From IMG/VR virus record IMGVR_UViG_3300027708_000013: 64,000 bases of DNA; one strand, written 5' to 3'. The position numbers were made by a program, and so were the translations under genes. This document shows positions 28,120 through 37,992 of the stretch, piece after piece (within the stretch, counting starts at the first letter, position 1; each line of letters starts with the position of its first letter). Under the pieces are notes generated by a model. It had not been told where the DNA came from, searched no databases, and saw only the letters and a program-made list of their open reading frames with translations. This DNA comes from a virus (Duplodnaviria; Caudoviricetes).

Positions 28120-29430
28120 ATGCAAAAAATCGAACACACTTCCCATGCTGGTATTAATTTTGAACCTAACAAAAAATTAGGTTATTACCTAGTGGGTAAT
28201 GGCATTTACTACAACAAAATACAAGCACTGATAGAGGCATCAAAGAAAAACTTAAAAGTCAAATGGTTTTTTAACGAAGATGTATTTGTTAAATATCCCT
28301 GGCACATAGAACCCGAAGAAAGCCTGCGTGAATTATATCGTCAACGTGCTCAACAACTCCGAGACCAATACGACTACATTAGATTAGAGCTCAGTGGCGG
28401 GTCAGACAGTACCACTGTGGCCTATAGCTTTTTACTTAATAATATACATTTAGATGAGGTGGTGTTTCGATATCCCAAGACCGGCGAACGAGGTGTAACA
28501 GGAGATCCGTCCAATACTCGAACCGAAAACACACTGAGCGAGTGGGAATTTGCAGCAAAGCCCTTGTTAAATTGGATTGCTACCAATTATCCCAAAACAA
28601 AAATCACAGTACACGACTACAGTGAAGATATGATTGCCGAAGCCGACACTAAGGATGAATCATGGATTTTTCGAACTCGACATTATTTACAACCCGGGCA
28701 CATACATAAATTTGACGATCGCCATATATTAAAACATCGGCGTCAAATTGATCGCACCAATAAAATGTGTTTATTGTATGGTGTTGATAAACCCAAAATT
28801 TTTATCAAAGACAATAAATTCTTTTTTTACTTTCAGGACGGACTTGCCAGTTACACCAACGAAATTGCGGCAGAAACATCTGGTGTTGTGAATGAATTCT
28901 TTTACTGGGCACCAGAATGTACCAAATTAATAGCCAAACAAGCACACGAAGTAAAACGTTGGTTCGCGATGCCTCAAAATTATCAATTTATGTCAAGCAC
29001 GTTACAATGGCCCAACGACGATTTTGCCAAACGTACTTTATATGAATCGTTAGTAAAACGTATTGTGTATCCCGATTACGATTTTCATACCTTTCAAACT
29101 GCAAAGCCCACTAACAATATATACAACGAAATGGACCATTGGTTCCATGTCAATTTTAAAGATACACAATTATACGGTTCGTGGGAGGCCGGGATTGGGT
29201 ATCTATTAGATAACATTGATTCTCGTTTTATTAGCCAAGACATTAGAGGAAGAACAGACAATATAGAAATGTTTAGTAGCATATATTATTATTTTGGTGA
29301 TGTTGCCATTGACAAAACTATTAGTCCAAATGCTGGTTTTAAAACTAAATCTGTAATCAAAGAATCCAGAAAAGCATGGCTTGCAAGTCAGTATCGGTAT
29401 TGCATACACGGAAAAATAATAATTTACTAA
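28120..29430 (+). CDS. PP-loop (HUP / adenine-nucleotide alpha-hydrolase-like) protein, paralog A
   Basis: RLELSGGSDSTTV PP-loop; LYGVDKP; EFFYW.P. Confidence 0.7.
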   Translation: MQKIEHTSHAGINFEPNKKLGYYLVGNGIYYNKIQALIEASKKNLKVKWFFNEDVFVKYPWHIEPEESLRELYRQRAQQLRDQYDYIRLELSGGSDSTTVAYSFLLNNIHLDEVVFRYPKTGERGVTGDPSNTRTENTLSEWEFAAKPLLNWIATNYPKTKITVHDYSEDMIAEADTKDESWIFRTRHYLQPGHIHKFDDRHILKHRRQIDRTNKMCLLYGVDKPKIFIKDNKFFFYFQDGLASYTNEIAAETSGVVNEFFYWAPECTKLIAKQAHEVKRWFAMPQNYQFMSSTLQWPNDDFAKRTLYESLVKRIVYPDYDFHTFQTAKPTNNIYNEMDHWFHVNFKDTQLYGSWEAGIGYLLDNIDSRFISQDIRGRTDNIEMFSSIYYYFGDVAIDKTISPNAGFKTKSVIKESRKAWLASQYRYCIHGKIIIY

Positions 29431-29542: not shown

Positions 29543-30829
29543 ATGCAAAAAATTGAACACACCTCCCATGCAGGTTTTACCTATGAGCCTAACAAAAAAT
29601 TAGGTTATTATCTAGTGGACAAGGAAGTTTACTACAACAAAATACAAGCACTGATTGCAGCTTCAAAAAAGAATATACCAATAAGATGGTTTTTTAACGA
29701 AGATGTATTTGTTAAATATCCCTGGCACATAGAACCTGAAGAAAACTTGCGAGAATTATATTGTCGACGTGCTCAACAATTACGTGATCAATACGACTAC
29801 ATTAGATTAGAGCTCAGTGGTGGTGCCGATAGTACCACTGTGGCCTATAGCTTTTTACTTAATAATATACATTTAGATGAGGTGGTGTTTCGATATCCCA
29901 AGACCGGTGACAAAGATGCATCCGGAGATCCGTCTAATACTCTGACCGAAAACACACTGAGCGAATGGGAGTTTGCGGCAAAGCCCTTGTTAAATTGGAT
30001 TGCCACCAATTATCCCAAAACAAAAATCACCGTACATGACTACAGTGAAGATATGATTACCGACGTCAACACCAAAGATGAATCATGGATTTTTCAAACC
30101 AGGCATTATTTACAGCCTAGTCATGCTAACAAATATAAACATATTATTAACAATAAAAATATTGCCGATCAAACACATAAAATGTGTGTAATTTATGGCA
30201 TAGATAAACCTAAAATATTTGTTAGGGACAATAAAGTTTTTTTATATTTTTCAGATGGATTAACTAACCACAGTAATCAAGTAGTCGACGAGTATACTAA
30301 TATTACCAACGAATTTTTTTATTGGACTCCAGATTTTCCCGAACTAATAGCTAAACAAGCACACGAAATAAAACGTTGGTTTAGTCTTCCGCATAATCAA
30401 CAAATGCAGGGAATACTACAATGGCCCAACAATGATGTTGCCAAACGTACTTTATACGAGTTGTTGGTAAAACGTATTGTGTATCCTGATTACGATTTTC
30501 ATACATTCCAAACTGCAAAGCCCACCACTAATATATCCTGTAAAATGGATTATTGGTTTCACATTAATTTTAAAGATACTAAACTATATTCGGTTTGGGA
30601 ATCTGGAATTAAATATTTTCTAGATAATATAGATACAAAATATGTATGTTTAATAAACGGAAACCCAGATGAAATACAGTCATTTCAAAGTCCGTATTAC
30701 TACATTGGAGATAGTATCATCGAGCAATCTAATAAGGGATTTAACACAAAATCCATATTGTTAGATCAACATCCAGACTCTACTAAAAAACATAGATATG
30801 TTATTAACGGCCAATTGGTAGTTTATTAA
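29543..30829 (+). CDS. PP-loop protein, paralog B (tandem duplicate of A)
   Basis: RLELSGGADSTTV; long near-identical DNA blocks shared with 28120-29430. Confidence 0.7.
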   Translation: MQKIEHTSHAGFTYEPNKKLGYYLVDKEVYYNKIQALIAASKKNIPIRWFFNEDVFVKYPWHIEPEENLRELYCRRAQQLRDQYDYIRLELSGGADSTTVAYSFLLNNIHLDEVVFRYPKTGDKDASGDPSNTLTENTLSEWEFAAKPLLNWIATNYPKTKITVHDYSEDMITDVNTKDESWIFQTRHYLQPSHANKYKHIINNKNIADQTHKMCVIYGIDKPKIFVRDNKVFLYFSDGLTNHSNQVVDEYTNITNEFFYWTPDFPELIAKQAHEIKRWFSLPHNQQMQGILQWPNNDVAKRTLYELLVKRIVYPDYDFHTFQTAKPTTNISCKMDYWFHINFKDTKLYSVWESGIKYFLDNIDTKYVCLINGNPDEIQSFQSPYYYIGDSIIEQSNKGFNTKSILLDQHPDSTKKHRYVINGQLVVY

Positions 30830-30830
30830 C

Positions 30831-30920
30831 TGGCGGAGAGTGTGAGATTCGAACTCACGATACAGTTGCCCATATGTCTGCTTAGTAGGCAGATGCCATC
30901 GTCCACTCGGCCAACTCTCC
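30831..30920 (-). tRNA. tRNA-Ser(ACT)
   Basis: Acceptor GGAGAGT/ACTCTCC+G+CCA, anticodon arm TCTGC-CTACTAA-GCAGA, long variable arm with GCAA loop, TTCGAAT T-loop. Confidence 0.85.
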
Positions 30921-30930
30921 TGAAGTTGTT

Positions 30931-31134
30931 TTACACTTCTACTGTGCCGTTTTGTATGGCCAACAGGGTTGAAATCAATGCATCGCTGTGTTGCAGTTCT
31001 GCACGATCTGCTGTTCTTTTATAAAGTGTTCTAGATTGTTGTGTGGCCGACAATATCATGTCGTATCTATTGCCGCCGGCGATTCTAACACATTTTTCAA
31101 TATCAATTTCAGTGCCTCTGCTGATTGGTTTCAT
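30931..31134 (-). CDS. rpoZ: RNA polymerase omega subunit (RpoZ)-like protein
   Basis: IEKCVRIAGGNRYDMILSATQQSR...LISTLLAIQNGTV aligns by eye with RpoZ [23 protein letters not shown]...[14 protein letters not shown]; AAGGA Shine-Dalgarno. Confidence 0.7.
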   Translation of the reverse strand: MKPISRGTEIDIEKCVRIAGGNRYDMILSATQQSRTLYKRTADRAELQHSDALISTLLAIQNGTVEV

Positions 31135-31159
31135 ACTGTTCCTTGTTCAAGTTGATTGA

Positions 31160-31446
31160 AGTACAACAGTTTGGGTACATGTATTTGCTTTACAACCGTG
31201 GACTGCTTGCCTTTGGAGAGCTACTCCTCTCGGCTTTGCAGACAAGTACCACCACCGTGCAAGCGGCTAAATGTCAACAAGTTTCAACAGACTCTCGGAC
31301 GTTTCCATGGCTTTTAAATTCTGGTGCCGCTTCGGGAATACCCGATATTGCACAATTTTCGAGCGACTCAAAGTCTTGCAATGCCACGTACTGCGCCTAC
31401 CACTGGTATCAAACGGGCGTCACCCCTGTACCCAAACTGTTGTACT
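31160..31446 (-). ncRNA. Unassigned ~287 nt structured ncRNA
   Basis: Perfect 19-20 bp terminal inverted repeat (31161-31179 vs 31427-31445), several internal stems, and its own promoter immediately upstream. Confidence 0.7.
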
Positions 31447-31455
31447 CTAGTTACT

Positions 31456-31484
31456 AGTGTAACATCTATCGCAATATGTGTCTA
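31456..31484 (-). promoter_or_regulatory. Sigma70-type promoter of the ncRNA-rpoZ-tRNA-Ser unit
   Basis: TAGACA-17-TACACT; the predicted start falls 1-3 nt before the ncRNA stem. Confidence 0.65.
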
Positions 31485-31603
31485 GCGTTTTTGATGGTTT
31501 TTGAGTCGGGAAAACCGTCAAACCCGGTGTCAACAGCCCATCCCCGGTTTCGTTGACAGCGGATGCTGATTAACAACCTTGCGGTGCGGGGTCAGCAACA
31601 ACT

Positions 31604-31678
31604 TGGTGGGCCAGGAAAGAATTGAACTTTCACTCCTTCGGTTATGAGCCGAACGCTTTACCATTAAGCTACTAGCCC
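31604..31678 (-). tRNA. tRNA (CAT), Ile2-like
   Basis: TTCGG-CTCATAA-CCGAA arm, GGGC start, A73, CCA; the Ile2 identity is inferred. Confidence 0.85.
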
Positions 31679-36235: not shown

Positions 36236-36826
36236 TCAAGTTGGTTTTTTCAGTAAAAAAGTCACAATACATCTATCTGTCAAATGGAACCAGTCTGAGC
36301 CAGGCTTTATTACTCCTTGTTCTGTTATTTCAAATAAATTTTTAAAATTATTCTGCCAACGGTTGACCTCTGCTTCAAAACTAAATTCGGGATGGTTGCT
36401 CCAGACTACTACCGATACAAAAACATAATCTTGAGTTAAACGATGTAATTCATTTATTGTGTGTGCTAATAATTCTTCATTTAATAAATGTATTACAAGA
36501 TTACACATTACAAAATCATACTGTCCGTCAGGATAATGATTGTATTTTTCAATGTAAGGATCATATCGTGTATACTGTATGTTGGGAAAATGCTGTTGAA
36601 GATTTTCAATAAATGTCGACTCACCGCACCCATAATCTAGTATAGTTTTAGGATTAATTTTAGGTATCAACTGCTGAATTGATACTCCTTCATGCAGGCG
36701 ATAATACTTGGATCTCCCCCAGTCCAGTGGATATTGATCGGCAAATTCTCCTGAGTAGATTTTTTTTATATATTTGCCTAGGTCATCAAATCCCAGGGTT
36801 TTCATTATGTTTCTTTTGAAGATCAT
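36236..36826 (-). CDS. Class I SAM-dependent methyltransferase
   Basis: ILDYGCGES motif I, YDPY, YDFVMC..VIH. Confidence 0.85.
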   Translation of the reverse strand: MIFKRNIMKTLGFDDLGKYIKKIYSGEFADQYPLDWGRSKYYRLHEGVSIQQLIPKINPKTILDYGCGESTFIENLQQHFPNIQYTRYDPYIEKYNHYPDGQYDFVMCNLVIHLLNEELLAHTINELHRLTQDYVFVSVVVWSNHPEFSFEAEVNRWQNNFKNLFEITEQGVIKPGSDWFHLTDRCIVTFLLKKPT

Positions 36827-37992
36827 CTATTACCCTGGTCTAGGTCAGGTGCATCTCCAAGACAGTAGAACGGACTTAAAAATCCAACGAATCCCACTGC
36901 ACAATCAAATTCTTTATTAAAATACTTGTCATCCACTGTGTTTTCAAGTAGCGTTAATCCTGCTTTCCAATTTATGTATGCTGTAGAATCTTTAAGATTT
37001 TTGTAGAACCAGTAGTCCATTTCTGGATAGAAATTATTAGTCGGCTTACTGACTTGGAATGTGGTTGGATCCCAATTGGTATAGATCAATGGTCTGATTA
37101 TATGTTCAAATGTAGTGCGTTGTGCTACAGAGTGATTTGGCCATCGTACCAAATGTTGTAAAAACTGGTTTTGTTTTGCGGAAAACCAGTTTTTAATTAT
37201 ATGTGCTTGTTTATGTAAAATTTCAGGAAAATCTGGGGTCCAATAGAAATATTCATTGGTCAAGTTGTTGTATTCGTACATTACGGAATTAGAATGGTTG
37301 GCTTGAAAGTCGATGAAATATGCATACCATTTTCCATCTTTAATACAAATCTTGGGTTTGTCAATGCCATAAAGAATACAAATACTTTTCCCTGTATCGG
37401 CTAATTTATGGTGACCATCAAAACTGATATTATCATGTTTAAATGCATGACTTGGCTGTAAAAAATCTTTTGCTCTAAAAATCCATGTTTCGTCGAGATC
37501 TGCATTGATCATGTCTTGGCTAAAATCGTGAACAGTAATTTTAGTAGCGGGGCTTACCTTGGCGATCCATTTTAATGCAGGTTTTGTGGCATACTCATAT
37601 TCACTTAGGAAGTTTTCTGGTTTACTATTATACGGATTTGGATCCATATTATGAGTACCTGATTCGGGATAACGAAATACTACTTCATCTAGAGTAATAT
37701 TGTTAAGTAAAAAACTAAACAGTATTGTAGTGGAATCTGCTCCCCCACTAAACTCTAGTCTAATGTAATCATATCTGTCTCGTAGTTGCTGTGCCCGTAA
37801 TCGATACATTTCGTTTATATCAACCTGTGGCTCTACTAGCCAATCAAGTGCACCAAACACGTCATTATTAAAATTCCAATGCGGAAATTGATTTGTTTTT
37901 GTTGCCAACATCAATGCATCAACTTTACTGTAGATGCATTGATCCCCTACAGTGTAAAACCCCAGCTTTGGATTGTTATCAAAGGTAAACAA
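36823..37992 (-). CDS. PP-loop protein, paralog C
   Basis: RLEFSGGADSTTI; LGFY.VG, LYGIDKP, NEYFYWTPDFPE shared with paralogs A and B. Confidence 0.7.
   Translation of the reverse strand: MFTFDNNPKLGFYTVGDQCIYSKVDALMLATKTNQFPHWNFNNDVFGALDWLVEPQVDINEMYRLRAQQLRDRYDYIRLEFSGGADSTTILFSFLLNNITLDEVVFRYPESGTHNMDPNPYNSKPENFLSEYEYATKPALKWIAKVSPATKITVHDFSQDMINADLDETWIFRAKDFLQPSHAFKHDNISFDGHHKLADTGKSICILYGIDKPKICIKDGKWYAYFIDFQANHSNSVMYEYNNLTNEYFYWTPDFPEILHKQAHIIKNWFSAKQNQFLQHLVRWPNHSVAQRTTFEHIIRPLIYTNWDPTTFQVSKPTNNFYPEMDYWFYKNLKDSTAYINWKAGLTLLENTVDDKYFNKEFDCAVGFVGFLSPFYCLGDAPDLDQGNR

What the first reader, a model, noticed from the sequence alone, without database searches (positions are those of the whole stretch)
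31160..31484. Independently promoted ~287-nt structured RNA co-transcribed with an RNA polymerase omega homolog
Seen: a perfect 19-20 bp terminal inverted repeat encloses ~250 nt with further stems (AAGCGGC/GCCGCTT, TCGGG/CCCGA, TTGCA/TGCAA, GACT/AGTC). A TAGACA-17-TACACT promoter places +1 at the foot of the stem. An rpoZ-like gene and tRNA-Ser(ACT) follow without another evident promoter. It lacks the RNase P, tmRNA and SRP signatures I can recognise. Inference: the long closing helix, size and link to omega suggest an RNAP-binding RNA (functional analogue of 6S or Ms1 RNA) used to redirect host polymerase; another ribonucleoprotein role is possible.
Basis: partly seen in the sequence, partly recalled or inferred. 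Interest (0 to 1): 0.78.

Follow-up and report, generated by a model that had tools for sequence, protein, structure and literature searches.

The report
New structured RNA in jumbo-phage tRNA islands
A freshwater jumbo phage and at least 21 relatives carry a previously uncatalogued 260-290-base folded RNA gene, closed by a 20-base-pair stem, that sits among their tRNA genes and usually near a phage copy of the RNA polymerase omega subunit; what it does is still unknown.

Summary
Window 31160-31446 (minus strand) is a 287-nt RNA gene closed by a perfect 20-bp helix.

- **Known families:** no Rfam 15 family matches, even at E<=10, in the window or four relatives. ARAGORN finds no tmRNA.
- **Homologues:** I found 22 distinct copies, one per contig, in freshwater jumbo-phage contigs.
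- **Structure:** 91% of cells pair, and 46 of 65 pairs show compensatory changes (slid controls: 36-45%, 10-21 pairs). G-U outnumbers A-C 64 to 6 (15-sequence set), which fixes the strand. No reading frame is conserved.
- **5' end:** a sigma-70-type promoter ends 7-11 nt before the stem, or a tRNA (Ser; once Val) ends 1-6 nt before it.
- **3' side:** a tRNA or a gene follows, with no scanned (window) or evident terminator.
- **Omega call:** the 67-aa neighbour gave no single-sequence hit, but a family profile matches RNA polymerase omega chains (E 5e-6).
- **Linkage to omega:** the gene lies within 2.5 kb on the same strand in 16 of 22 loci, adjacent only in the window and one relative. One relative has omega but no RNA.
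- **Function:** the fold is not 6S-like, and RNA polymerase binding is untested.

Best reading: a new stable, trans-acting phage RNA matured alongside tRNAs. The scan had already noted this stretch, and an omega-like gene in a related tRNA island.

The parts
31456..31484 (-). Sigma-70-type promoter: -35 TAGACA (31484-31479), 17-nt spacer, -10 TACACT (31461-31456). The predicted +1 lies about 0-2 nt before the stem foot.
   Evidence: Promoters stand at the same position in relatives: TTGACA-17-TATAAT in L081, L082, L097 and L149; TTGACA or TTGACG-17-TATACT in L126, L150, L152 and L147; TTGCAT-17-TATACT in L101, L103 and L128.
31160..31446 (-). The structured RNA gene (287 nt). It is a member of a new family of 259-288 nt.
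   Evidence: Covariance model R1 scores 270 bits on the minus strand against 24 on the plus strand. There are 22 distinct homologues, with covariation. G-U 64 against A-C 6.
31427..31446 (-). P1, 5' strand of the 20-bp closing helix.
   Evidence: 16 of 20 pairs show compensatory changes and 97% of cells pair across 22 sequences.
31160..31179 (-). P1, 3' strand of the closing helix.
31415..31426 (-). P2 hairpin (GGN-GUGRCG-NCC). Its loop may pair with GUYG in the P3/P4 internal loop.
   Evidence: 100% paired, 2 of 3 pairs compensatory. The loop reads GAC where the internal loop reads GUUG and GGC where it reads GUCG in 21 of 22 sequences, but only through wobble-compatible one-sided changes, so this is a lead and not shown.
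31399..31414 (-). 5' strands of P3 and P4, with the nearly invariant (A)UCUGAUAC.
   Evidence: P3 100% and P4 92% paired; 4 of 8 P4 pairs are compensatory.
31326..31367 (-). P6/P7 domain. It holds the most conserved stretch of the family: the hairpin UCGGG-UAUU-CCCGA with its flanks.
   Evidence: A 25-nt block is identical in window, L081, L082 and L097. P7 is 100% paired with G-C to A-U in 6 sequences. 5 of 6 P6 pairs are compensatory.
31312..31319 (-). Conserved unpaired AUUU(N)AAA linker after P6.
   Evidence: No covarying partner was found.
31208..31285 (-). Distal domain inside P8, variable in sequence and length (P9, P10). It accounts for the size classes of about 260 and 280-288 nt.
   Evidence: helices 10 and 11: all pairs vary on both sides.
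31184..31207 (-). 3' strands of P8, P4 and P3, with the conserved GUYGWAAAGCAGAU segment.
30931..31134 (-). 67-aa divergent RNA polymerase omega (RpoZ/Rpb6) homologue. It starts 25 nt after P1, is preceded by AAGGAA, and is probably co-transcribed with the RNA.
   Evidence: The same order is seen in L106.
30831..30920 (-). tRNA-Ser(ACU), the last gene of the unit. It converges on the PP-loop gene that ends at 30829.
   Evidence: A tRNA-Ser(ACU) also stands beside the RNA in L091, L106, L124, L147 and L155.

Best explanation
This is the gene of a new family of phage-encoded structured non-coding RNA (259-288 nt), made as a discrete molecule in the tRNA island of freshwater jumbo myoviruses.

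Shown: it is conserved as a fold, not as a protein. The fold has a 17-20-bp closing helix P1 and a three-way junction (P1/P2/P3). P3, P4 and P8 form a coaxial rod. A conserved 110-nt domain (P5-P7) is inserted on the 5' strand only, and the distal tip is variable.

Shown: its 5' end is placed at the foot of P1 in two interchangeable ways. Either a host-type sigma-70 promoter has its -10 element 7-11 nt upstream, or a tRNA 3' CCA end (tRNA-Ser, once tRNA-Val) lies 1-6 nt upstream. Downstream, a tRNA follows within 2-20 nt, or a protein gene within 12-75 nt, with no terminator found by the window scan or evident in the relatives' flanks.

Inferred: the RNA is released from tRNA-type polycistronic transcripts. 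RNase P cutting at the next tRNA would set the 3' side, followed by 3' trimming back to P1. The long P1 shields both ends, so the RNA accumulates as a stable trans-acting molecule.

Inferred, weakly: the invariant unpaired and hairpin segments are a binding surface for a protein or RNA partner. These segments are UCUGAUAC, the UCGGG-UAUU-CCCGA hairpin with its flanks, AUUU(N)AAA and GUYGWAAAGCAGAU. The partner would belong to the gene-expression take-over set encoded around the RNA (tRNAs, omega-like subunit). The partner is not identified.
For: No Rfam family matches at E<=10 in the window or in four relatives. There is no similar DNA in 50,697 GenBank phage records. There are 22 distinct homologues in IMG/VR, JGI and ENA contigs, one copy per contig. 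On 22 sequences 91.2% of cells pair and 46 of 65 pairs carry compensatory changes, with 0 of 500 shuffles reaching any measure. Slid controls give 36-45% paired and 10-21 pairs. An independent MAFFT plus RNAalifold run on 9 sequences gives the same helices, with 36 of 58 pairs compensatory. G-U 64 against A-C 6 fixes the strand. No reading frame is open in all copies, and most copies have stops in all six frames. Two lake metatranscriptome runs from two studies hold 85-89% of the RNA's sampled words. In one of them the only contig on the 2-kb stretch is a 245-nt exact piece inside the RNA (31174-31418).
Against: No direct evidence for a discrete transcript, its ends or its stability: only assembled contigs could be laid, RNA libraries can contain DNA, and one contig (31342-31492) runs 46 nt upstream of P1 through the promoter. 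No partner is identified. In 10 loci a protein gene follows directly, so a cis role as a leader is not excluded. Related contigs, including one rated 94% complete, lack the RNA, so it is dispensable for the group.
Confidence: 0.55

Rival explanations
1. RNA-polymerase-directed regulator. The RNA would bind host RNA polymerase, possibly together with the phage omega-like subunit, as a functional analogue of 6S or Ms1 RNA.
For: The neighbour is a real, though divergent, omega homologue. An omega-like gene lies within 2.5 kb on the same strand in 16 of 22 loci, in varying order: RNA-omega-tRNA-Ser; omega-tRNA-Ser-RNA; RNA-tRNA-Leu-omega; or 1-2.5 kb apart. So proximity has survived several rearrangements.
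Against: No 6S or other Rfam match at E<=10. The fold lacks the two-sided central bubble: no unpaired base separates the 3' strands of P8 and P4. A 94%-complete relative has omega but no RNA. No omega was found within 5-10 kb in L110, L081, L082, L097 or L116, and none in L152, whose locus is only 2,987 bases long. Both genes lie in one syntenic island, so proximity may be inheritance rather than function.
Confidence: 0.12
2. Cis-acting 5' leader or processing and stabilising module. The element would exist to protect or punctuate the transcript of whatever follows it, with P1 acting as a 5'-terminal block to 5'-end-dependent decay or as a double-strand nuclease processing stalk.
For: It is always co-oriented with, and directly followed by, a gene, with no scanned (window) or evident terminator: tRNA-Leu(UAG), tRNA-Thr, omega, a DctP-like gene, or a radical-SAM-like gene. 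A 20-bp perfect duplex is long enough for RNase III (general knowledge).
Against: The downstream gene differs between relatives while the RNA core is invariant. 250 nt of covarying, sequence-conserved internal structure far exceeds what end protection or a nuclease site needs. No expression platform is present: P1 does not overlap any ribosome-binding site, and no alternative terminator exists. In 8 loci it lies directly between two tRNAs or after a tRNA.
Confidence: 0.15
3. RNA-only assembly. Like ROOL and GOLLD, the other phage RNAs found near tRNA islands, it would form a homo-oligomeric particle.
For: It shares the same genomic niche: phage-encoded, beside tRNAs, ornate covarying fold, lake metagenomes. 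ROOL and GOLLD are described as phage and prophage RNAs often near tRNA islands that form 8-mer and 14-mer cages (bioRxiv 10.1101/2024.12.08.627333). A conserved U-run/A-run linker is mostly palindromic.
Against: It is one half to one third of their size. There is no match to their models. The palindrome is AU-only, is broken in L082, and shows no covariation that keeps it palindromic.
Confidence: 0.07
4. Not an RNA gene at all: a miniature inverted-repeat mobile element, or a small protein gene on the plus strand (ORF 31125-31457).
For: It has perfect 20-bp terminal inverted repeats. An antisense frame is open across the element in the window and three relatives.
Against: There is a single copy per contig, including a 357-kb complete genome. 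Compensatory changes run all along the interior. The G-U against A-C asymmetry points to the minus strand. Stops occur in every frame in most copies.
Confidence: 0.02

Closest known systems
ROOL and GOLLD RNAs (large ornate phage and prophage RNAs near tRNA islands)
   Same: All are phage-encoded, sit in or beside tRNA arrays, and have elaborate covariation-supported folds of unknown function. GOLLD was first seen in lake metagenomes.
   Different: This RNA is 259-288 nt, against about 580 and over 800 nt. Their Rfam models give no match even at E<=10. The architecture differs, and no evidence of multimerisation exists here.
Phage T4 stable RNAs species 1 and 2 (rnaC, rnaD) in the T4 tRNA cluster
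   Same: They are non-tRNA stable RNAs encoded inside a phage tRNA cluster with tRNA-like spacing, matured with the tRNAs, and of unknown function (my own knowledge; not read in a paper here).
   Different: The T4 RNAs are about 120-140 nt. No DNA similarity to any of 50,697 phage records was found. This RNA often has its own promoter and a 20-bp closing helix, with no CCA-type end.
6S RNA and Ms1 RNA (RNA-polymerase-binding RNAs)
   Same: They share a long helix formed by the 5' and 3' ends and a size of a few hundred nt. Here there is the added genetic neighbourhood of an omega-like gene.
   Different: No model match. The fold is branched, with a one-sided insertion instead of a central open-promoter-like bubble. 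Binding is untested.
Bacterial RNA polymerase omega subunit (RpoZ, Pfam PF01192), for the neighbouring 67-aa gene
   Same: A profile of the phage family aligns over residues 4-62 of E. coli omega, including the GNRF/Y-D-L-V/I-L block.
   Different: The protein is very divergent: the window's copy alone is below every detection threshold. It is phage-encoded, shorter (66-77 aa), and its N-terminus differs.

Membership tests
6S RNA (Rfam RF00013) | Match to the family covariance model | tested here: not met
   No hit at gathering score or at E<=10 in the window or in 4 relatives.
6S RNA (Rfam RF00013) | Rod-like helix interrupted by a large two-sided central bubble | tested here: not met
   In the consensus fold the 3' strands of P8 and P4 are contiguous, and the large unpaired or branched region lies on the 5' strand only.
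6S RNA (Rfam RF00013) | Binds sigma-70 holoenzyme and templates product RNA | not testable with these tools
   Needs biochemistry.
tmRNA | tRNA-like acceptor/T-arm domain with CCA end and a tag reading frame | tested here: not met
   ARAGORN finds no tmRNA and Rfam gives no hit. There is no 7-nt T-loop and no CCA after P1 in any of 22 copies.
RNase P RNA / SRP RNA | Match to the family covariance models | tested here: not met
Y RNA / YrlA | Model match, and a Ro60 (TROVE) gene in the genome | tested here: not met
   No Rfam hit. PF05731 is absent from 5 related contigs, including a complete 357-kb genome, while the control genomes did hit.
ROOL / GOLLD | Match to the family covariance models | tested here: not met
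ROOL / GOLLD | Phage or prophage location close to tRNA genes | tested here: met
   A tRNA lies within 20 nt on at least one side in 15 of 22 loci, and all are phage contigs.
ROOL / GOLLD | Homo-oligomeric cage formation | not testable with these tools
   Needs native gel or cryo-EM work.
Miniature inverted-repeat transposable element | Multiple copies per genome with target-site duplications | tested here: not met
   One copy per contig. The flanks show no duplication.
RNA polymerase omega, PF01192 (the 67-aa neighbour) | Significant match to the family profile | tested here: inconclusive
   The window's own protein has no hit. Its full-length homologue in a relative scores 35.1 bits against a cut-off of 26, and the two align at E 5e-14. 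A profile of the phage family hits about 20 solved omega chains, best E 4.7e-6. Homology is therefore supported transitively.
RNA polymerase omega, PF01192 (the 67-aa neighbour) | Binds the beta-prime subunit of RNA polymerase | not tested
   The host is unknown, so no complex job was sent.

The most novel reading that the evidence does not exclude
The RNA and the phage omega-like protein act together on the host RNA polymerase. That would be a phage-made ribonucleoprotein or RNA decoy that re-tunes the enzyme, for instance to keep phage tRNA and stable-RNA promoters active in starved lake bacteria. It would be the first phage-encoded RNA-polymerase-binding RNA, with a fold unrelated to 6S.
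Probability: 0.1. Interest if true: 0.85.

Novelty: new variant of a known kind. Interest (0 to 1): 0.62.

Why it matters
Large, strongly covarying RNAs without a known job are rare, and past examples have led to new biology (riboswitches, ribozymes, RNA cages). This one is a clean new family:
- 22 members and 46 compensatory pairs;
- defined ends and a compact conserved core;
- a size small enough (260-290 nt) for direct structural and biochemical study.

Its place among tRNA genes echoes ROOL, GOLLD and the still unexplained T4 stable RNAs, so a function found here could shed light on that whole group. Its repeated neighbourhood with a phage-encoded omega subunit was not mentioned in the jumbo-phage review and paper searches I ran. 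It gives a concrete, testable link to transcription take-over.

Tried and rejected
**Searches for known relatives**
- Rfam at gathering score and at E<=10: nothing on the RNA.
- megablast and blastn against GenBank phages: nothing.

**Searches for more family members**
- A search through the neighbouring phosphoesterase gave more than 597 relatives, but none of the 80 loci fetched holds the RNA.
- An exact 22-24-nt core pattern found only 4 distinct sequences in IMG/VR and JGI metagenomes.
- The bacterial and archaeal genome scan with a gapped pattern gave two hits, both chance by the model. This does not exclude divergent cellular homologues.
- L146, L151 and L153 matched the second gapped pattern but not the model at E<=0.001. 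I did not examine them further.

**The 67-aa protein on its own**
- It gave nothing in Pfam, NCBIfam, PHROGs, PDB by sequence, or IMG/VR.
- Its AlphaFold model (pLDDT 73, three helices) gave no omega hit by Foldseek.
- At that stage I wrongly noted the omega call as unsupported. The family search of related genomes overturned that.

**Other ideas tested and dropped**
- Ro/TROVE partner: absent.
- Pseudoknot hunt: the linker-to-J3/1 pairing has no compensating change. An alternative AUCUGAU/AUCGGGU pairing is possible but rests on invariant bases.
- Palindromic-linker dimerisation: unsupported.
- Read laying: contigs only. Parts of the stretch without cover, and the low depths, say nothing.
- The catalogue of 10,006 viral candidate RNAs (PMC10690425) holds motifs of 29-151 nt only, so I could not tell whether part of this RNA is in it.

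Full report
**What is there**

The window is part of a freshwater jumbo myovirus. It carries a tail sheath, a T4-type terminase, GroEL and UvsW, and 24 tRNA genes, all on the minus strand.

Between tRNA-Met (31604-31678) and tRNA-Ser(ACU) (30831-30920) lies the flagged element. Two perfectly complementary 20-nt arms (31427-31446 and 31160-31179) enclose 247 nt. The arm sequence occurs nowhere else in the window, and none is expected by chance. A TAGACA-17-TACACT promoter stands at 31484-31456 on the minus strand. A 67-aa ORF (30931-31134) starts 25 nt after the 3' arm. No Rfam 15 family matches the element, even at E<=10, and ARAGORN sees no tmRNA.

**Finding relatives**

- GenBank phages hold nothing similar.
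- The neighbouring phosphoesterase has hundreds of IMG/VR relatives, but the 80 loci fetched lack the RNA.
- A search through the PP-loop gene next door gave the first three homologues.
- Conserved-core patterns, nhmmer, a covariance model (R1), whole-contig searches and a look-up of the 67-aa protein's relatives added the rest.
- The total is 22 distinct sequences of 259-288 nt, each single-copy in its contig.
- A 94%-complete 345-kb relative and several partial contigs have none.
- A gapped-pattern scan of 185,579 bacterial and archaeal genomes gave only two chance matches.

**It is an RNA, read from the minus strand**

| Test | Result |
|---|---|
| Cells forming standard pairs, 22 sequences | 91.2% |
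| Pairs with changes on both sides | 46 of 65 |
| Column shuffles reaching any measure | 0 of 500 |
| Slid controls (3' partner moved 1-3 columns) | 36-45% paired, 10-21 such pairs |
| Independent MAFFT plus RNAalifold, 9 sequences | 36 of 58 pairs compensatory |
| G-U against A-C cells in the pairs (15-sequence alignment) | 64 against 6 |

The model-fitted alignment leans towards its own structure. The RNAalifold run was not fitted to the model, and it recovers P1, P2, P3, P4, P7, P8 and P10. The G-U excess is expected only if the minus strand is the RNA. No frame on either strand is open in all copies, so the 110-aa plus-strand ORF is not a gene.

**Anatomy (window coordinates, minus strand)**

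- **P1:** 31446-31427 with 31179-31160. It is 17-20 bp in all members, and 16 of 20 pairs are compensatory, yet the inner part has a conserved sequence.
- **P2:** a small hairpin (31426-31415).
- **P3 and P4:** their 5' strands carry the near-invariant UCUGAUAC (31414-31399).
- **P5-P7:** a domain of about 110 nt inserted on the 5' strand only. Its heart is the invariant hairpin UCGGG-UAUU-CCCGA closed by P6 (31367-31326).
- **Linker:** an unpaired AUUU(N)AAA (31319-31312).
- **P8:** closes a distal tip that varies in sequence and length (31285-31208). This tip explains the size classes of about 260 nt and about 280-288 nt.
- **Return strands:** the 3' strands of P8 and P4 are contiguous. A conserved GUYGWAAAG separates P4 from P3.
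- **Possible tertiary contact:** the P2 loop reads GAC where that segment reads GUUG, and GGC where it reads GUCG, in 21 of 22 sequences. This fits a 3-4-bp contact, but the changes are one-sided and wobble-compatible and follow two clades. It is a lead, not a result.

AAGCGGC pairs with GUCGCU in the consensus, not with GCCGCTT.

**How it is made**

The 5' end is set at the foot of P1 in one of two ways.

- **Own promoter (14 loci).** A sigma-70-type promoter stands immediately upstream with its -10 ending 7-11 nt before P1. It is often a perfect TTGACA-17-TATAAT or TATACT, so the start falls at the foot of the stem.
- **Upstream tRNA (7 loci).** In 6 loci a tRNA-Ser (ACU or GCU) ends 1-6 nt before P1, and once a tRNA-Val does.
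- **Both (1 of the 14).** L147 has a tRNA-Ser 40 nt upstream and a promoter squeezed between it and P1.

What follows also varies.

- tRNA-Leu(UAG) follows within 2-16 nt in 7 loci.
- tRNA-Thr follows within 14-20 nt in 5 loci.
- A protein gene with a ribosome-binding site follows in 10 loci: omega in the window and L106; a DctP-like gene in 6 loci, and by sequence context in L155; a radical-SAM-like gene in L116.
- No terminator-like site follows the RNA in the window scan, and none is evident in the flanks printed for the relatives.

The two interchangeable ways of fixing the 5' end at P1, and the tRNA-like spacing, argue that the P1-closed molecule is the functional unit. They also argue that it is released like a tRNA-island product. 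The cleavage steps themselves are inferred.

Two lake metatranscriptome runs from two studies hold 85-89% of the RNA's words. In one of them the only contig on a 2-kb stretch is an exact 245-nt piece inside the RNA. This is a weak hint of expression. Contigs show neither ends nor strand, and another contig runs on through the promoter.

**The omega neighbour**

Taken alone, the 67-aa protein matched nothing: not Pfam, NCBIfam, PHROGs, PDB sequences or Foldseek on a pLDDT-73 model. It has only four close relatives.

- Searching related phage genomes with Pfam PF01192 changed the picture. A 77-aa ORF in a 345-kb relative scores 35 bits against a cut-off of 26, and 72-aa ORFs in others score 17-20 bits.
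- The window's protein aligns with these over its full length (E 5e-14 and 7e-12).
- A profile of the family finds about 20 solved RNA polymerase omega chains as its best PDB matches (E 4.7e-6, residues 4-62 of E. coli omega).

An omega-like gene lies on the same strand within 2.5 kb of the RNA in 16 of 22 loci. The order varies: RNA-omega-tRNA-Ser, omega-tRNA-Ser-RNA, RNA-tRNA-Leu-omega, or 1-2.5 kb apart. It was not found in the 5-10 kb of flank held for five loci, nor in L152, which is only 2,987 bases long. One relative has omega without the RNA.

**What it does**

Nothing here identifies a partner.

- **6S-like reading.** It lacks its defining features: no model match and no two-sided bubble. 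It rests only on neighbourhood within one syntenic island. I give it about 0.1.
- **Pure cis-leader or processing role.** The element always heads a co-oriented gene, and 20 bp of duplex could be an RNase III site. However, the downstream gene changes while 250 nt of core stays fixed, and there is no expression platform. I give it about 0.15.
- **ROOL/GOLLD-like RNA-only assembly.** It shares the niche but has no specific support. I give it about 0.07.
- **Mobile element or coding readings.** These are excluded.

The best-supported statement is that this is a new family of stable, trans-acting phage RNA matured alongside tRNAs. Its invariant loops would serve as a binding surface for a partner in the phage's gene-expression take-over module.

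**Novelty**

- The family is absent from Rfam 15.
- A catalogue of 10,006 viral candidate RNAs holds only motifs of 29-151 nt.
- Paper searches found no description of this RNA, nor of a phage-encoded omega.
- The kind of thing is known: a structured RNA of unknown function in a phage tRNA island. This fold is new.
- The scan had noted this stretch before, and had also noted an omega-like protein in a related phage's tRNA island.

Noticed in passing
window 31486-31603 (minus strand): A second conserved structured element lies just upstream of the RNA's promoter. It has two hairpins with compensatory changes (12 of 30 pairs in only 3 sequences) and a conserved loop CGAAAC-GGGAUGGGCUG. It is present in the window, L081 and L082, but not in L097. 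Function unknown; it may be a 3' structure of the preceding unit.
   Followed up: partly
window 30931-31134; L142:958-1191; L143:1028-1246; L145:969-1187: A family of phage-encoded RNA polymerase omega-like proteins (66-77 aa) is widespread in these jumbo phages. It includes a relative that lacks the RNA. One member passes the Pfam cut-off. I found no paper describing a phage omega.
   Followed up: partly
window 30831-30920; also L091, L106, L124, L147, L155: tRNA-Ser with the unusual ACU anticodon is conserved in at least five relatives, always next to the RNA or the omega gene. In other relatives a tRNA-Ser(GCU) holds the same position.
   Followed up: no
L103:465-1463, L128:5585-6571, L110:6124-7080, L119:5200-6171, L106:634-2569: These phages carry DctP-type, and in L106 TctC-type, solute-binding protein genes directly beside the RNA. 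These are unusual cargo for a phage, and they hint at a proteobacterial host.
   Followed up: no
window 28120-29430, 29543-30829, 36823-37992: Three paralogous 390-436-aa proteins with an SGGxDS PP-loop motif bracket the tRNA array. Pfam gives no significant family for the copy that I tested (29543-30829).
   Followed up: no
window 31187-31360, run X17: A lake run holds a variant of the RNA with 8 listed substitutions clustered in the variable distal domain (31230-31251), so natural micro-diversity is concentrated there.
   Followed up: no
L084:4289-4364: ARAGORN reports a tRNA-like gene with a two-base anticodon (tRNA-???) next to tRNA-Met in a relative.
   Followed up: no
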